A DNA stretch of 62,943 nt, filler included, from Reclinomonas americana ATCC 50394 (GCA_048213135.1; 20 parts of 20 records of this genome joined end to end with filler, not necessarily neighbours in it), one strand, 5' to 3'. Shown: positions 255 through 7,628, counted from the first letter of the whole stretch. Notes: generated from the letters alone by a model not told the origin. Numbers and translations are program-made.

Positions 255-1933
255 ATGAGGTGTGCTGTGATGTTGTCACGTGGCATTCTCTCTCTCTCAC
301 TCTCGCTCACTGCTTCTGCTTTTTCCTCTTTGGTGGCAGTGCTCCTCGGAAGAAAGCATTTGAAATGGGGAGGGATGGGAATGTGAAGGCACTGCGCGAG
401 TTGGTGACGCGTGAGGGCGCACGCATTCTGCTGAAGAGAGAGGAGATGGATGAGTATGGCGGCTCGGCATTTAACTCTGCCGCTGCCAAAGGCCATCTCC
501 CTGTGTTGGAGTATTTGTGGGAGGAGAGTGGTGTCGGGCCACACCTCGCACAAATGGTCGACAGCTTTGGCTGGACGCCACTGATGACAGCTGCCTGTAA
601 TGGGCGCCTGCAAGTTGTGGAGTGGTTGCTGGCCGATGAGCGACGATGTCCGCCGGAGATGGTGCGGGCGGTCACCAATGACCGTGCCGGCTCTCCACAG
701 TCCACTGCACTGCATTTTTCTGCTGGCCAAGAAGCCGTTGTGCGACTCCTCGCCGCTCGCTTCCCCGACCTCATTCCCATGGTGGACAAGGCGGGGAAGA
801 CGGCGGCTCAGGTGGCACGCGACTTGAGAATGCCGGAAGTGGCCGAGTTGCTCGACCGCCTCGCTGCGCAACCAGCACCACCACGCCAACTACAGCAACA
901 GCAGCAGCCGCAATCCCCGCCTCCTGCAGGTATGACGTATATTATGTCTGTTGGCAAGTTGTGTTCGTGCTCACGCTCCACCATCTGTGGTTTGTCCTCG
1001 TGCATCCCTGGCGAAACATGCAGTGCCAGCACGCCAGGTGAGAAGGAGAGTGACACTCACTCTCTGCTTCTTGTTGCTCGTGAAACTCACTTCTCACATC
1101 CTTTCCGTGTCTCCATCTCACTCGTACAGGCTACTGGAGATGATCCCACCGTAGTGGCGCGGCAGCTTGCCGAGAAGGATGCACTCGTCTCCCAACTCCA
1201 GCGCGATCTTGCGGCAGCAGAGCAGGAGCGAGTGGAGCAGCAGCGGGAGTGGGACCGACAGCGACGAGAGCACGAGGACATTGTTGCCCAACTGCAGCGT
1301 GCAGTGACGGAGCAGCAGCTAGGCAAGGCTGAGGAGCAGCAGAAGAATGCCCAGCTACAGCGGACTGTCATGGAGCTGCAGCAAGCCAACACAGAGTGGC
1401 AGCGTGCTCATGCCAGCGAGCAGCAGAAGAACAGTCAACTGCAGCAAGCGGTGGTTGAATGGCAGCAACATCATGCCAGCGAGCAGCAGAGGAATGCCCA
1501 GTTGCAGCGGACTGTGACGGAATGGCAGCAAGCTTATGGCCATCTACAGGCTCAGCTGACTGCGGCTCTGCGTGACAAGGACGACCTCACCACGCACCTG
1601 CATGAAAGCAATCAACTCGTTTCCCAGCTGCGACAAGATCTCCTCCTCACCCAAGGTATGTTTCTTGCCCTCTTTCTTTCTTCGTATCTGTGTTCAATGT
1701 CCTTGATTCTCACTCAATTCTCACTCTCCTTTACACCCTCCTCAGTCGACACCGCCGTGCAGCGCTTCGAGTGGCCCGAGATCATTCAAGCCACCAATTC
1801 ATTCTCACCCAGCCTCAAGGTCGGCGAAGGTGGCCAAGGTGCCGTATTCATCACTCTGCTTCGCGAGGTGCACGTGGCCATCAAGTTGCTCGATCCCGAT
1901 GCTCCATGGACGATGGAGTCGTTTGAGAGTGAG
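255..1933 (+). CDS. Ankyrin-repeat / coiled-coil / IRAK-Pelle-like kinase, paralog 1 (spliced, 3' truncated by contig end)
   Basis: GT-AG exon model 255-259, 340-929, 1024-1037, 1130-1655, 1746-1933 keeps frame. It gives MSAPRKKAFEM..., ankyrin motifs (GWTPLMTAACNG, STALHFSA, GKTAAQVA), a Q-rich coiled coil and the kinase N-lobe (VGEGGQGAVF...VAIK...FESE). Exon boundaries match the paralog at 4496-7628. Confidence 0.9.
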
Positions 1934-1989
1934 GTCTGTTTGTCTGTGTGTCTGTGTGTCTGTGTGTCTGTGTGTCTGTGTGTCTGTGT

Positions 1990-2089
1990 NNNNNNNNNNN
2001 NNNNNNNNNNNNNNNNNNNNNNNNNNNNNNNNNTTAATTAATTAANNNNNNNNNNNNNNNNNNNNNNNNNNNNNNNNNNNNNNNNNNNN
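1990..2089. other. Artificial contig linker (N44-TTAATTAATTAA-N44, stops in all six frames)
   Basis: The same 100-nt linker recurs starting at 4261, 8371, 10018, 12086, 17311, 20251, 23698, 25820, 30990, 32204, 35323, 38067, 42266, 47757, 51670, 55726, 57341 and 58618. Confidence 0.99.
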
Positions 2090-4495: not shown

Positions 4496-7400
4496 ATGAG
4501 GTGAGCATTGGTTGCTGCTTGCATTGTATTGTTGTCAGGTGGCATTCTCTCTTTGATTCTCACTCGCACTTCTGCCTTGATTGTGTTTCATGTGTGTATC
4601 TGTGTCAGTGCTCGTCGGAAGAAAGCGTGGGAGATGGCATATACGGGCGATGTGAAGGCACTGCGCGAGTTGGTGGCGACTGAGGGTGCACACATTCTGC
4701 TGAAGAAAGAGGAGATGGATAACGAAGGCGGCGCAGCATTTCACAATGCCGCTCAACGTGGCAATCTTACTGTGTTGGAGTATTTGTGGGAGGAGAGTGG
4801 CGTGGGGCCACAACTCGCACAAATGGTCGACAGCAGAGACTGGACGCCACTGATGGGGGCTGCCGCCCTTGGGCATTTGCAAGTGGTGGAGTGGTTGCTT
4901 GCCGATGAGCGACGATGTCCGCCGGAGATGGTGCGGGCGGTCACCAATGACAGGTCGGTCAATCCACGGTGCACTGTCCTGCATTATGCTGCTGCATATG
5001 GCTATGAAGCTATTGTGCGACTCCTCGCCGTTCGCTTTCCCGACCTCATTCCCATGGTTAACAAGAAGGGCAAGACGGCGGCTCAGTGGGCACGTTACGA
5101 AGGCAAGCAGGAAGTTGCCGACATGCTCGACCACCTCGCTGCGCAGCCGGCGCCACAACGCCAACAACAACAACAGCCACTACCACCTCCACCAGCAGGT
5201 GTGACCTCTCTAGTTTGGTGCCATGTTGTTGCTTCATTCCATTCGTGCTCACACTCCTCCATGTTGTGTTTGTGCCTCTCTGCAAAACATGTAGCTCCAG
5301 CACGCCAGGTGAGGTGGAGAGAATTATGTGCGTCTTGATCGTCCATCTCACTTGCTGCATACGTTCGGGGTCTCCCCGCACTCTCTTATCACATCGACTT
5401 CTATGCAGGCGGCTGGCGATGATCACGCTATCGCACGCCAGCCCGTCGACAGGGAAAGACTCAACGCCCAACTCCATCGTGATCTTGCCGCAGCGCAGCA
5501 AGAGCGAGTGGAGCAGCAGCGAGAGTGGGATCGACAGCGACGAGAGCACGAGGACATCGTCGCCCAACTGCAGCAAGCCAACGCTGAGATTGATCGAGGC
5601 AAGGCTGAGGAACACCAGAAGAATGCCCATCTGCAGCGAAGTGTCATGGAGCTGGAGCAAACCAAGGTTGAGATGCATCACAAGATTGCCCAACTGCAGC
5701 TGGCGGTCGGCGAATGGCAGCGAGCTCACGCTGACGGACAACAGCAAATCGTGCAATTGCAGCAAGCCAACACGGAGTGGCAGCATGCTCATGCCAGCGA
5801 GCAGCAGAAGAATGCCCAACTGCAGCGGACTGTGACGGAGTTGCAGCAAGCTCGTGGCCAACTGCAGCAAGTTCACGGCCAACTGCAGGCTCAACTGACT
5901 GCGGCTCTGCGTGACAAGGACGATCTCACCGCGCAGCTGCACGAGAAGGATCAACTCGTCTCCCAGCTGCGACAGGATCTCCTCCTCACCCAAGGTCTGT
6001 CTCTCGTCCTCTTTCTGTCTTTGATAAGTGTTTCGGTGTTCAACATCCTCCATTCTCACCTCATGTCTCACTTCCAATTACCCACTCTCCACAGTCGACA
6101 CTGCTGTGCAGCGCTTTGAGTGGCCCGAGATTGTACTCGCCACCGACTCATTCTCCCCTCGTCTCAAGGTCGGCGAGGGTGGCCAGGGTGCCGTGTTTAT
6201 CACTCTGCTCCGCGAGATGCACGTGGCCATCAAAGTACTCGACCCCGATGCACCGTGGACGATGGAGTCGTTTGAGAGTGAGGTCTGTCTCTCTCCATTC
6301 TCCTGTTTCTCCATCTCTTTCTCACTTTTCTCCTCATCCTTCTCCACACTTCACAGGTGGCCACTCTCGGACGCCTGCGCGACCGTCGCATCGTCCCCCT
6401 TGTCGGCTACTCGGTGGGCGACGACAAGGCACGCTGTCTCGTTTACAAGGCCCTGCAGTGCGTGTTCATCTCTCTCCTTCTCCTCTCATCCATCATCACC
6501 TCAGTGTGCAAACACACAGAGTCCCCAACCTGGAGGATCTGCTGCTGCTGCCTCGTGCCGGTCGTGCACCCCTCACTGTCATGCAGCGCGTGCAAATTGG
6601 TCTCGGGCTGGCCGAGGCTGTGTTGTTCTTGCACAAGGTGTGTGCGATGTGGATCCCTTTTTCTACATCTCCCATTTTCTCTCTCGTAACCTTCTCTCTT
6701 TGTGTTTGTACTTATTTTCTCCTCTCTCTTTGTTACCTTCTTTGTTGTTTGCCTCTCTATGTCTGTCGTTCGCTCTCTCTCTCTCTCTCTCTCCCTCTTG
6801 GTCATTCGTACCCGCTTTATTTGCACTCATTATCTGTCCTTTCCTCATCACTCTTTTTCCTGCTCTTGCCTCTCCCAATCTCTCGTGTTCTCCACTTCCT
6901 CACTCGCCATTCTCTCTCTCACACTCACTCTCCCTCTCTTGGTCGCCCTCGCTCTCTTTGTGTTTGCGCTCATTATTTCTCTTCTCTCCTCGTCACTCTT
7001 CTCGTCATTCAAGTCTCCCGGTCTGTCGTGTTCTCTCTCCCTTTCTTTCCCTTCTCGTTTTAATTCGCACATTGTACCACACCTCACTTACCTGCCTCAC
7101 AGAATGAGGTGGTGCACCGCGACATCAAACCCTCGAACGTCCTTCTTGATCACCGCTGCGAGCCATGTCTCGGTGACTTTGGCATCGCGCGGTCGATTGC
7201 AGATGGCAAGGTTTGTTGCCATCGATTCCTCTCTCTTTCGCATTCTCTCACTCTCTCCCATCTCGCAGACCACGACCGCCGCCGGCACGCTGGACTACAT
7301 GGACCCACTGGCGATGCGAGTGAGGATGCCGGATCCAGAGCACGACGTGTACAGCATGGGCGTGGTGCTGGTGCAGCTGGTCACCGCCAAGCCCGTCGCC

Positions 7401-7628
7401 ACAGTGGTCGGGTGGTCTGTGAGATGGGATCGTTCCGGTGCCGCTTCACTGCGCCCCATGGAACTGGTGGACCGTGGGGCAGAATGGACGCCGCGCATCG
7501 CCGAGCCGATGTTCGAGCTCGGCATGCGCTGCATGAGCTTGCAATCGAGGCGACCGACGACACAGGAGGTGCTCGATGTGATGCGTGCGCTGCGCGAGGC
7601 TTGTGGGCAGTTTACGCTGGAATTGTGA
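4496..7628 (+). CDS. Ankyrin-repeat / coiled-coil / IRAK-Pelle-RLK-like protein kinase, paralog 3 (complete, 9 exons, 689 aa)
   Basis: Exons 4496-4500, 4609-5198, 5295-5308, 5409-5994, 6095-6282, 6357-6457, 6520-6637, 7103-7210 and 7269-7628 sum to 2070 nt, all GT-AG, with an open frame. Kinase motifs GEGGQG, VAIK, CLVY, HRDIKPSN, DFG, GTLDYMDP, DVYSMGVVL and RRPT appear in order. Confidence 0.93.

What the first reader, a model, noticed from the sequence alone, without database searches (positions are those of the whole stretch)
255..7628. Ankyrin-coiled-coil-IRAK/Pelle kinase family with a hypervariable ankyrin binding face: candidate immune-like receptor system
Seen: three paralogs share the same exon structure. 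Scaffold blocks are nearly invariant: VVEW[LM]LADERRCP[PA]EMVRAVTNDR, EYL[WC]EESGVG and GKTAAQ, and paralogs 1 and 3 differ by one base over the roughly 65 nt encoding the first block. Variation clusters at hairpin tips (DEYG/NDDG/DNEG; DSFG/ADDG/DSRD; AGSP/NFCE/SVNP) and inner-helix positions (NSAAAK/LCAAWN/HNAAQR; TAACN/AAALN/GAAAL; FSA--/WAAEE/YAAAY; VARDL/MARDN/WARYE). The shared kinase exon is highly conserved. Established: these positions form the concave ligand-binding face of ankyrin repeats (those randomised in DARPins), and IRAK/Pelle/RLK kinases signal in animal and plant innate immunity by induced proximity. Inference: a one-polypeptide cytosolic sensor-oligomeriser-kinase family under diversifying selection. 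I do not recognise this architecture as a described system, but I could not search for it.
Basis: partly seen in the sequence, partly recalled or inferred. Interest (0 to 1): 0.88.

Follow-up and report, generated by a model that had tools for sequence, protein, structure and literature searches.

The report
Variable ankyrin-kinase gene family in a protist
Three related genes from a jakobid-like protist join a small ankyrin binding module to a dimer-forming coiled coil and an IRAK/receptor-like kinase, and the ankyrin binding face changes faster than silent sites, as in receptors that must keep recognising new partners.

Summary
Three paralogous genes encode a 4-repeat ankyrin domain, a coiled coil and, in two copies, a kinase whose N-lobe matches only IRAK1 and plant RLK/RLCKs among solved kinases (12 of 13 hits).

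There are important caveats. The window is 20 short contigs glued by artificial spacers, so each copy sits on its own contig. Only copy 3 is complete: 8 exons, 687 aa. Copy 1 is cut by its contig end. Copy 2 has a much shorter coiled coil and no kinase exon in the 772 nt left on its contig.

The DNA is eukaryotic. Its only close relative is a Reclinomonas americana (jakobid) EST protein at 70% identity. The window also holds bacterial contigs.

At positions fixed in advance (the DARPin-randomised ones), 21 of 22 columns vary against 56 of 148 elsewhere. A fixed-sites codon model gives omega 3.7 or 2.6 on the face against 0.31 for the rest, with LRT against omega=1 of p=5.5e-6 or 5.4e-4.

The coiled coil is predicted to form a parallel, in-register homodimer. 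An immune role is untested. I rate it a new variant of a known kind, resting on only three sequences.

The parts
255..259 (+). Copy 1, coding mini-exon ATGAG, followed by an 80-nt intron (260-339)
   Evidence: ATGAG|GT is shared by all three copies. Acceptor CAG|TGCTC gives the N-terminus MSAPRKKAFEMGRDG.
340..929 (+). Copy 1, ankyrin exon (N-cap plus 4 ANK repeats, then a Q/P-rich linker)
   Evidence: Pfam Ank_2 1.3e-15. Alignment. Donor CAG|GTATGA at 930.
1140..1655 (+). Copy 1, coiled-coil exon. The acceptor is uncertain (1129 or 1139). It contains a 63-nt internal repeat at 1408-1531.
   Evidence: It is 66% identical to the copy 3 coiled coil by tblastn.
1746..1933 (+). Copy 1, kinase exon 3 (pre-kinase motif, Gly loop, VAIK). 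The contig ends at 1989, so the rest of the gene is missing.
   Evidence: 90% identity to copy 3; splice sites conserved; dN 0.047, dS 0.70.
1990..2089 (.). Artificial spacer N44+TTAATTAATTAA+N44 between contig 1 and contig 2
2513..2517 (+). Copy 2, mini-exon ATGAG, followed by a 66-nt intron (or 93 nt with the alternative acceptor)
2584..3136 (+). Copy 2, ankyrin exon. It has no Met at the position of the internal Met of copies 1 and 3.
   Evidence: Pfam Ank_2 1.1e-27. Alignment. Donor options at 3135 or 3137.
3292..3486 (+). Copy 2, short coiled-coil exon (about 63 aa; acceptor uncertain). Its phase-1 donor GAG|GTTTGA is kept. No kinase exon follows up to the contig end at 4260.
4261..4360 (.). 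Artificial spacer between contig 2 and contig 3
4496..4500 (+). Copy 3, mini-exon ATGAG, followed by a 108-nt intron
4609..5200 (+). Copy 3, ankyrin exon. AF2 model: N-cap helix plus 4 helix pairs.
   Evidence: Pfam. AF2 pLDDT 94.5. Top Foldseek hits are DARPins, with TM 0.72-0.78 on the query length and up to 0.84 on the target length.
5409..5994 (+). Copy 3, coiled-coil exon (195 aa), predicted parallel in-register homodimer
   Evidence: score 0.53 against a best control of 0.00. Heptad-spaced contacts over residues 15-195.
6095..6282 (+). Copy 3, kinase exon 3: pre-kinase motif RFEWPEI..AT..FS, GEGGQG, VAIK
   Evidence: (IRAK1 and plant RLK hits only)
6357..6463 (+). Copy 3, kinase exon 4 (3' junction least certain)
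   Evidence: This is the only GT donor I found by reading the DNA that keeps the frame.
6520..6637 (+). Copy 3, kinase exon 5
7103..7210 (+). Copy 3, kinase exon 6 (HRDIKPSN, DFG)
   Evidence: Pfam Pkinase 6.2e-9, profile positions 117-151
7269..7628 (+). Copy 3, kinase exon 7 (activation segment to the C-terminus, then the stop). The APE Glu is replaced (DPL).
   Evidence: Pfam Pkinase 1.3e-5, profile positions 156-258..
13452..13775 (+). Relic of a further family member on contig 6. 13452-13550 resembles exon 4 plus the start of intron 4 (80%). 13605-13775 resembles the region downstream of copy 3, 7972-8159 (89%). Exons 5-7 are absent.
   Evidence: blastn; tblastn; translation

Best explanation
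WHAT IT IS
These are members of a lineage-specific multigene family in a jakobid-like heterotrophic flagellate. The family encodes soluble proteins of about 690 aa.

DOMAINS (shown)
- A DARPin-sized ankyrin domain: an N-cap plus 4 repeats.
- A long heptad segment.
- An IRAK/RLK-like kinase domain with an intact Gly loop, VAIK, HRD and DFG.

HOW IT LIKELY WORKS
- Model-supported: the heptad segment forms a parallel, in-register dimer. This would put two ankyrin heads at one end and two kinase domains at the other.
- Shown statistically: after duplication, the scaffold and the kinase stayed under purifying selection. The concave ankyrin face (hairpin tips and the ends of the inner helices) was driven apart by positive selection.
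- Inferred: each paralog binds a different protein target through that face. Binding changes the activity or substrate access of the paired kinases, by re-orienting the dimer or by clustering dimers.
- Inferred: copy 2, which seems to lack a kinase, would be a kinase-less decoy or regulator, or a decaying copy. The relic on contig 6 shows birth-and-death turnover.

Whether the targets are foreign (prey, virus or symbiont proteins) or endogenous is open.
For: GENE AND DOMAINS
- Pfam Ank and Pkinase hits.
- Copy 3 model: 2064-nt CDS, 687 aa, 7 GT-AG introns, no internal stop, with GEGGQG, VAIK, HRD and DFG present.
- AF2 model of the ankyrin exon has pLDDT 94.5. The top Foldseek hits are DARPins.
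- N-lobe exon: 12 of 13 PDB sequences at E<=1 are IRAK1 or plant RLK/RLCKs.
- By language-model features, the C-lobe exon is nearest to streptophyte PK_Tyr_Ser-Thr clusters (a lead only).

SELECTION
- Face set A (positions 2, 3, 5, 13, 14 of each repeat): 21 of 22 columns vary against 56 of 148 elsewhere, Fisher p=1.5e-7.
- Face set B (position 33 added; register taken from the HMMER alignment to a DARPin): 22 of 26 against 55 of 144, p=1.1e-5.
- With the EST added: 17 of 17 face columns vary, against 48 of 117.
- ML fixed-sites codon model: omega_face 3.66 (A) or 2.61 (B), omega_rest 0.31-0.32. LRT against omega_face=1 gives p=5.5e-6 or 5.4e-4.
- For copies 1 and 3, the nonsynonymous proportion on the face is 0.59. 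Synonymous proportion across Ank+CC+kinase exon 3 is 0.32 (p=2.5e-4). Intron mismatch is also 0.32 (p=3.3e-4).
- Purifying selection elsewhere: kinase exon 3 has dN/dS about 0.07 and the coiled coil about 0.33.

DIMER
- Score 0.53 against a best of 3 controls of 0.00.
- The mark was reached by 21 of 30 proteins solved as pairs of one chain and 0 of 23 solved as single chains. On eukaryotes it was 17 of 29 and 0 of 30.
- The runs agree in at least 99% of contacts, and partner pLDDT is at least 86.

EXPRESSION OF A RELATIVE
- The closest database protein comes from an EST of Reclinomonas americana.

TURNOVER
- A relic copy lies on contig 6.
Against: - Only three genomic sequences and one EST protein are available. 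Site-level inference is impossible.
- By NG86, only the copy 1 / copy 3 pair is significant. Copy 1 vs 2 gives p=0.41 and copy 2 vs 3 gives p=0.19, with dS near saturation.
- Synonymous divergence between copies 1 and 3 is lower in the ankyrin exon (dS 0.24) than in the coiled coil (0.53) or kinase exon 3 (0.70). Gene conversion or synonymous constraint may therefore inflate omega.
- Against kinase exon 3 alone, the excess is not significant (p=0.16 or 0.31).
- No RNA evidence exists for these copies. The junctions of intron 1 in copy 1, the copy 2 coiled-coil acceptor, and exon 4/5 of copy 3 are inferred.
- The APE glutamate is absent (DPL).
- Copy 2 shows no kinase exon.
- The copies sit on separate contigs of a mixed assembly, so a single genome of origin is presumed, not shown.
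- Coiled coils are common among solved structures, so the dimer pass may reflect likeness.
- No ligand is known.
Confidence: 0.6

Rival explanations
1. The paralogs are ordinary redundant duplicates. Exposed, structurally unconstrained ankyrin positions simply drift (omega about 1). The scaffold looks over-conserved because gene conversion or codon constraint lowers synonymous divergence in the ankyrin exon. There is no adaptive diversification and no receptor logic.
For: - The DARPin positions are the least constrained in all ankyrin repeats (established knowledge).
- dS in the ankyrin exon (0.24) is less than half that of the coiled coil (0.53) and kinase exon 3 (0.70) for the same pair.
- Against the synonymous proportion of kinase exon 3 alone, the face excess is not significant (p=0.16-0.31).
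- The two older pairs give omega_face of 1.1-1.35 with set B.
Against: - The excess holds against gene-wide synonymous sites and against introns (p=2.5e-4 to 2e-3).
- The ML LRT rejects omega_face=1.
- Conversion that spares only the face codons would itself need selection to keep them different.
Confidence: 0.2
2. The three copies are not paralogs of one genome. They are orthologs or alleles from different strains or species mixed in the sequenced culture, so 'family' and 'diversifying selection among paralogs' are mis-stated.
For: - The window is a mix of organisms. Contig 15 is 98% identical to a 6.4-Mb bacterial genome, while contig 3 is absent from it.
- Each copy is on its own short contig.
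- The window's own assembly is not held, so linkage could not be tested.
Against: - Divergence between copies is far above allelic levels: 19% at the DNA level in the ankyrin exon of the closest pair, with indels in the coiled coil, and about 29% for copy 2 against copy 3.
- Copy 2 has a different architecture.
- A fourth, decayed copy lies on another contig next to unrelated eukaryotic sequence.
- An EST from a single cultured species is as far from each copy (63-74%) as they are from each other.
Confidence: 0.1
3. The genes are decaying pseudogenes, and the open frames are residual.
For: - Copy 2 lacks a kinase exon.
- Copy 1 needs a shifted acceptor for a canonical intron 1.
- The APE Glu is lost in copy 3.
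- A relic copy exists.
- No RNA run was listed (no evidence either way).
Against: - Kinase exon 3 has dN/dS of about 0.07 and the scaffold about 0.3.
- Copy 3 has a 687-aa frame with 7 canonical introns and no internal stop.
- A close relative is present in an EST library.
Confidence: 0.05

Closest known systems
IRAK/Pelle/RLK kinases, especially plant receptor-like cytoplasmic kinases (RLCKs such as BIK1) and animal IRAK1/IRAK4
   Same: The N-lobe exon, with its pre-kinase motif (RFEWPEI..AT..FS...K[VI]GEGG.G), aligns only to IRAK1, LysM-RLKs, CERK1, BIK1, BRI1 and a lectin RLK among solved kinases. The protein is soluble with no transmembrane segment, like RLCKs.
   Different: - There is no death domain (IRAK/Pelle), and no ectodomain or transmembrane segment (RLK).
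- The N-terminal module is an ankyrin stack plus a long coiled coil.
- The organism is a jakobid-like excavate.
- Clade membership was not tested by phylogeny.
Fungal NLRs with hypervariable ANK, TPR or WD repeats (Dyrka et al. 2014, PMC4986451; abstract and matched passages read)
   Same: ANK repeats have conserved scaffolds. [quoted passage not shown] Some of these NLRs carry a protein kinase as the effector domain.
   Different: - No NACHT or NB-ARC domain is present here. Pfam found nothing on the middle exon.
- A coiled-coil dimer replaces the NOD oligomeriser.
- Variation is between paralogs, not between near-identical repeats within a gene.
- There are only 4 repeats.
Ankyrin-plus-kinase proteins of the TKL group: ILK, TNNI3K, RIPK4/ANKK1 and plant ILK1/APK (recalled, not tested here)
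   Same: Ankyrin repeats are fused to a TKL-type kinase in one soluble polypeptide. RIPK kinases are the sister group of IRAKs and signal in immunity.
   Different: - Those are conserved genes with low copy number.
- RIPK4 and ANKK1 have the reverse domain order.
- None has an intervening 170-200 aa dimeric coiled coil, as far as I recall.
- None has a reported hypervariable face, as far as I recall.
Cereal kinase-fusion and tandem-kinase resistance proteins (for example Pm13, WTK4, Pm36; listing and abstract starts only)
   Same: These are soluble RLK/Pelle-derived kinases fused to a recognition module. They act as intracellular immune receptors.
   Different: - The fused modules there are second kinases, HMA-like, MLKL-like or other domains, not an ANK stack plus coiled coil.
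- They come from an unrelated lineage.
- No functional data exist here.
DARPins (designed ankyrin repeat binders)
   Same: They are the best structural matches: TM 0.72-0.78 on the query length, up to 0.84 on the target length, and about 30% identity. The positions randomised in DARPin libraries are those that vary here.
   Different: DARPins are artificial. Position 33 is not variable here: 1 of 4 such columns varies (column 142; column list). Extra short helices and a longer hairpin occur between repeats.

Membership tests
Ankyrin repeat proteins | Sequence match to ANK repeat profiles | tested here: met
   Ank_2 at E 1e-15 to 1e-27 on all three exons, above the gathering score
Ankyrin repeat proteins | Stack of helix-turn-helix repeats with beta-hairpin loops | tested here: met
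   AF2 model with pLDDT 94.5 and paired helices H35-41/45-53, 72-78/82-89, 115-121/125-134 and 149-155/159-170. Foldseek finds DARPins at E 1e-7.
Eukaryotic protein kinases (active) | Gly loop, VAIK Lys, HRD, DFG | tested here: met
   GEGGQG, VAIK, HRD and DFG are present in spliced copy 3. Pkinase hits fall on exons 6 and 7.
Eukaryotic protein kinases (active) | APE glutamate of the activation segment | tested here: not met
   The sequence reads DPL where APE or DPE is expected. The consequence is unknown.
IRAK/Pelle/RLK family (TKL group) | Closest sequence relatives are IRAK or RLK kinases | tested here: inconclusive
   N-lobe exon: 12 of 13 PDB hits are IRAK1 or plant RLK/RLCKs. C-lobe exon: Aurora A, IRAK4 and an LRR-RK are all weak. 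Atlas features are nearest to streptophyte PK_Tyr_Ser-Thr clusters.
IRAK/Pelle/RLK family (TKL group) | Placement inside the clade in a kinase phylogeny | not tested
   The spliced kinase could not be handed to the database tools, and no reference kinase set was available in the script box.
IRAK/Pelle proper | N-terminal death domain | tested here: not met
   No Death-domain hit on any of the 12 exon translations scanned
Receptor-like kinases proper | Signal peptide, ectodomain and transmembrane helix | tested here: not met
   The N-terminus is MSARRKKAWE. The highest KD 19-residue window (1.65) lies in kinase subdomain IX.
NLR / STAND receptors | Central NACHT or NB-ARC NTPase | tested here: not met
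   The middle exons gave no Pfam family in copies 1 and 3, and only weak coiled-coil families in copy 2. They are predicted to be a continuous coiled coil.

The most novel reading that the evidence does not exclude
Jakobids, a deep-branching excavate lineage of bacterivores, may have independently built an innate-immune-like receptor family. In it a DARPin-like ankyrin head with a hypervariable face detects foreign proteins from prey bacteria, intracellular bacteria or viruses. A coiled-coil dimer carries the signal to an IRAK/RLK-type kinase. Kinase-less copies would act as decoys. This would be a third solution, alongside LRR-RLK/IRAK pathways and NLRs, and would push IRAK-type immune signalling logic outside animals and plants.
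Probability: 0.2. Interest if true: 0.8.

Novelty: new variant of a known kind. Interest (0 to 1): 0.55.

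Why it matters
IRAK/Pelle/RLK kinases are the signalling core of innate immunity in animals and plants, and their history outside those groups is poorly known. 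This finding puts such a kinase behind a hypervariable binding module in a jakobid. If confirmed, it gives a concrete, testable candidate for non-self or prey sensing in a free-living excavate. It would also be a natural analogue of DARPin libraries.

My two literature searches for such a family (jakobid + kinase + ankyrin, 7 papers; IRAK/Pelle/RLK/protist/ankyrin, 9 papers) showed nothing relevant in the listed titles and abstract starts. The protein searches found no relative other than one EST.

If the signal is only relaxed constraint plus gene conversion, this is an ordinary lineage-specific kinase expansion.

Tried and rejected
- OWN GENOME: not held.
- GENOME_CONTIGS SCAN with the ANK alignment: 44 pattern matches, none confirmed.
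- METAGENOME_CONTIGS SCAN: 359 pattern matches, none confirmed.
- SEQUENCING RUNS: none was listed and no RNA holder was listed.
- ANK EXON AGAINST LONGER PROTEINS: 23 hits among 3044 candidates. All are generic ANK proteins at 26-40% identity, and 0 of 23 carry a kinase Pfam domain.
- ANK EXON AT NEAR LENGTH: 2 hits among 737 candidates. Only the Reclinomonas EST protein is close.
- PROFILE SEARCH OF 1.84 BILLION REPRESENTATIVES: 89,277 hits. The 150 listed are giant multi-repeat ANK proteins (7-59 stretches) plus the same EST protein. This was uninformative for family size.
- KINASE EXON 7 AGAINST LONGER PROTEINS: 587 candidates, none at E<=10.
- KINASE EXON 7 AGAINST PDB: not discriminating; Aurora A, IRAK4 and an LRR-RK, all at about 22-25 bits.
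- PFAM ON 109 ORFS of the other eukaryote-like contigs (8471-23697): only an AKAP7-type domain, and no further family member.
- EARLIER FINDINGS of this scan: none by place or by sequence.
- REJECTED, a transmembrane receptor: no ectodomain or transmembrane segment.
- REJECTED, an NLR: no NOD domain.
- REJECTED, bacterial origin: introns are present and the sequence is absent from the 6.4-Mb bacterial genome that shares half the window's words.

Full report
WHAT THE WINDOW IS

The 62,943-base window is not one locus. It holds 19 spacers of the form N44 + TTAATTAATTAA + N44, which split it into 20 contigs of 1.1-5.4 kb.

Contigs 1-8 (1-23697) have 52-62% GC, microsatellites and interrupted reading frames. 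Contigs 9-20 have 62-68% GC and long ORFs, and two of them carry tRNAs.

Contig 15 (42366-47756) is 98% identical over its whole length to a 6.4-Mb, 100%-complete bacterial genome, G001. Contig 3 and the ankyrin protein are absent from that genome. The window's own assembly is not held.

The finding therefore lies on three separate contigs: 1-1989, 2090-4260 and 4361-8370. These are eukaryotic contigs inside a mixed eukaryote-plus-bacterium assembly. Physical adjacency of the three copies is not shown.

THE GENES

Copy 3 gives a complete model:
- Exons: 4496-4500, 4609-5200, 5409-5994, 6095-6282, 6357-6463, 6520-6637, 7103-7210 and 7269-7628.
- Seven GT-AG introns of 56-465 nt.
- A 2064-nt CDS of 687 aa with no internal stop.

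All three copies begin with the same 5-nt coding mini-exon, ATGAG|GT, at 255, 2513 and 4496. It is followed by a 66-108 nt intron and a CAG acceptor. The resulting N-termini are MSAPRKKAFEMGRDG, MSAPPPPPRKRAHKLAKEG and MSARRKKAWEMAYTG. This explains why copy 2 has no Met at the position of the internal Met of the others.

Copies 1 and 3 align continuously through introns over about 1.8 kb at 75% identity. Their splice sites for introns 2 and 3 are conserved.

Copy 1 is cut by its contig end just after kinase exon 3.

Copy 2 keeps the ankyrin exon, a coiled coil of only about 63 aa and the phase-1 donor after it. No kinase exon is recognisable in the remaining 772 nt of its contig.

A fourth, decayed member lies on contig 6. 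Positions 13452-13550 resemble exon 4 (80%). Positions 13605-13775 resemble the region downstream of copy 3 (89%). Exons 5-7 are missing.

Splice junctions are inferred from sequence only. No sequencing run could be listed.

DOMAINS

The ankyrin exons hit Pfam Ank_2 at 1e-15 to 1e-27. Exons 6 and 7 hit Pkinase. The middle exons hit nothing beyond weak coiled-coil families.

AlphaFold2 on the ankyrin exon, with 4 sequences, gives pLDDT 94.5. The model has an N-cap helix and four helix pairs. The best structural matches are DARPins, with TM 0.72-0.78 on the query length, up to 0.84 on the target length, and about 30% identity.

The kinase has GEGGQG, VAIK, HRD and DFG, but reads DPL where the APE motif is expected.

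For the N-lobe exon, 12 of the 13 PDB sequences at E<=1 are IRAK1, two LysM-RLKs, three CERK1 entries, a lectin RLK, BIK1 and four BRI1 entries. The other hit is a designed repeat protein. The match includes the pre-kinase segment.

The C-lobe exon does not discriminate between kinase families. By language-model features it is nearest to streptophyte PK_Tyr_Ser-Thr clusters.

I therefore call the kinase IRAK/RLK-like.

There is no death domain, NOD domain, ectodomain or transmembrane segment.

The coiled-coil exon of copy 3 is predicted to form a parallel, in-register homodimer, with heptad-spaced contacts over residues 15-195:
- Score 0.53 against a best of 3 controls of 0.00.
- The mark was reached by 21 of 30 proteins solved as pairs of one chain and 0 of 23 solved as single chains. 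On eukaryotes it was 17 of 29 and 0 of 30.
- The runs agree in at least 99% of contacts, and pLDDT is at least 86.
- Coiled coils abound among solved structures, so this may partly be likeness.

The coiled coil contains internal repeats: a 63-nt unit at 1408-1531 and a 21-nt unit at 5842-5888. It differs in length between copies.

ORGANISM AND RELATIVES

The only close relative in 5.8 billion proteins is a 154-aa protein predicted from an EST of the jakobid Reclinomonas americana. It is 70% identical to copy 3 in the search, and 63-74% identical to the copies in the 4-way alignments. That is about as far as the copies are from each other.

Its divergent C-terminal tail reads like a one-base frameshift of the conserved PDLIPMV..GKTAAQ region. 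This is my inference from comparing with the DNA.

Other searches found nothing closer:
- Longer proteins gave only generic ankyrin proteins: 23 hits, 0 with a kinase domain.
- The representative library gave only giant ankyrin proteins plus the same EST protein.
- The kinase C-lobe found nothing among longer proteins.
- Scans of genome and metagenome contigs confirmed nothing.

The family is therefore lineage-specific as far as these collections go, and at least one relative is transcribed.

IS THE BINDING FACE REALLY HYPERVARIABLE, AND IS IT SELECTION?

I fixed the 'face' beforehand as the positions randomised in DARPin libraries: 2, 3, 5, 13 and 14 of each repeat, plus 13 and 14 of the N-cap. 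This is set A, with 22 columns. In set B, position 33 was added and the register was taken from the HMMER alignment to a DARPin, giving 26 columns.

Column counts:
- Set A: 21 of 22 columns vary against 56 of 148 others (p=1.5e-7). 13 of 22 against 13 of 148 have three different residues.
- Set B: 22 of 26 against 55 of 144 (p=1.1e-5).
- With the EST protein, over columns 1-134: 17 of 17 against 48 of 117.

Nei-Gojobori estimates for copies 1 and 3:
- dN on the face is 1.18 (set A).
- dS in the rest of the ankyrin domain is 0.225.
- Scaffold omega is about 0.5.

A maximum-likelihood fixed-sites codon model (3-taxon star tree, shared synonymous branch lengths) gives:
- omega_face 3.66 (A) or 2.61 (B).
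- omega_rest 0.31-0.32.
- omega_face=1 rejected at p=5.5e-6 (A) and 5.4e-4 (B).

Elsewhere the gene is constrained. The coiled coil has dN/dS of about 0.33 and kinase exon 3 about 0.07.

RESULTS AGAINST THE SELECTION READING

- The synonymous divergence of copies 1 and 3 is lower in the ankyrin exon (0.24) than in the coiled coil (0.53) and kinase exon 3 (0.70). Introns 1 and 2 are 64% and 77% identical. Gene conversion or synonymous constraint may therefore depress the local yardstick.
- Against gene-wide synonymous sites or introns, the face excess remains (0.59 against 0.32, p=2.5e-4 and 3.3e-4; set B p=1.6e-3 and 2e-3). Against the 43 synonymous sites of kinase exon 3 alone, it does not (p=0.16 and 0.31).
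- The two older pairs give omega_face of only 1.1-1.9 and are not significant by NG86.
- With three sequences, no per-site inference is possible.
- Position 33, which is randomised in DARPins, varies in only 1 of 4 such columns here (column 142).
- Positions 10 and 16, which are not randomised in DARPins, vary in all four repeats (columns listed).

MECHANISM

Shown:
- The domain composition.
- Intact catalytic motifs, except APE.
- Purifying selection on the scaffold and kinase.
- An excess of amino-acid change on the concave face.

Model-supported:
- A parallel dimer through the coiled coil.

Inferred:
- Each paralog binds a different protein through its ankyrin face.
- Binding alters the paired kinases, either by changing their relative geometry or by clustering dimers.
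- Copy 2 may be a kinase-less decoy or regulator, or a dying copy.

COMPARISON WITH WHAT IS KNOWN

- ANK plus kinase fusions exist (ILK, TNNI3K, RIPK4/ANKK1, plant ILK1; recalled). Those are conserved genes without a reported variable face.
- The closest precedent for the evolutionary pattern is the fungal NLRs. Their ANK repeats show positive selection on the concave surface, and some carry a kinase effector (Dyrka et al. 2014, PMC4986451; abstract and matched passages read). Here a coiled coil stands where the NOD domain would be.
- Cereal kinase-fusion and tandem-kinase resistance proteins are the closest functional analogy for a soluble RLK-type kinase fused to a recognition module (listing and abstract starts only).
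- Two literature searches gave no paper describing this family, judging by the listed titles and abstract starts: jakobid + kinase + ankyrin (7 papers) and IRAK/Pelle/RLK/protist/ankyrin (9 papers). Supplements were not consulted.

VERDICT

This is a real, lineage-specific ANK / coiled-coil / IRAK-RLK-like kinase family from a jakobid-like protist. Its ankyrin binding face evolves at or above the neutral rate, most likely under positive selection. The immune-receptor reading is attractive but untested (about 0.2). I rate it a new variant of a known kind, with interest 0.55.

Noticed in passing
window 1990-2089, 4261-4360 and 17 further sites (list): The window is a concatenation of 20 contigs joined by N44+TTAATTAATTAA+N44 spacers, which carry stop codons in all frames. 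Neighbourhood across a spacer says nothing about linkage.
   Followed up: yes
window 23798-62943 (contigs 9-20): These are bacterial contigs: 62-68% GC, long ORFs, and tRNAs at 29029-29115 (-) and 33485-33556 (+). Contig 15 is 98% identical to a 6.4-Mb complete bacterial genome (G001:C12). The assembly mixes a protist with a bacterium, probably prey or an associate.
   Followed up: partly
window 13942-15196, minus strand (contig 6): Two adjacent minus-strand frames hit Pfam AKAP7_NLS (2',5' RNA ligase-like / 2H phosphoesterase domain) at 1.7e-15 and 9e-6, covering different parts of the profile. This is probably one eukaryotic gene with an intron or a frameshift.
   Followed up: no
window 13452-13775 (contig 6): A decayed fragment of a further family member: an exon-4-like piece joined directly to sequence like the copy 3 downstream region, with exons 5-7 deleted.
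   Followed up: partly
window 1408-1531 and 5842-5888: The coiled-coil exons contain internal tandem repeats, with 63-nt and 21-nt units. They differ in length between paralogs by 14- and 7-residue indels. Coiled-coil length evolves by gain and loss of repeat units in whole heptads.
   Followed up: partly
window 4129-4184 vs 4417-4474: The 3' end of contig 2 resembles the region just upstream of copy 3 (88% over 58 nt; a GA repeat plus a poly-C tract). This is compatible with another copy's promoter region lying downstream of copy 2, or with simple low-complexity similarity.
   Followed up: no
P0024 (Reclinomonas americana EST protein), residues about 135-154: The C-terminal tail diverges from all genomic copies in a way that fits a one-base frameshift of the conserved PDLIPMV..GKTAAQ coding sequence. 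This is probably an EST read error, so only residues 1-134 were used.
   Followed up: partly
window 182-2041: In copy 1, the ankyrin, coiled-coil and kinase exons and both introns between them lie in one open frame of 619 codons. Intron retention would therefore still give an in-frame protein. This may be chance in CT-rich introns.
   Followed up: no
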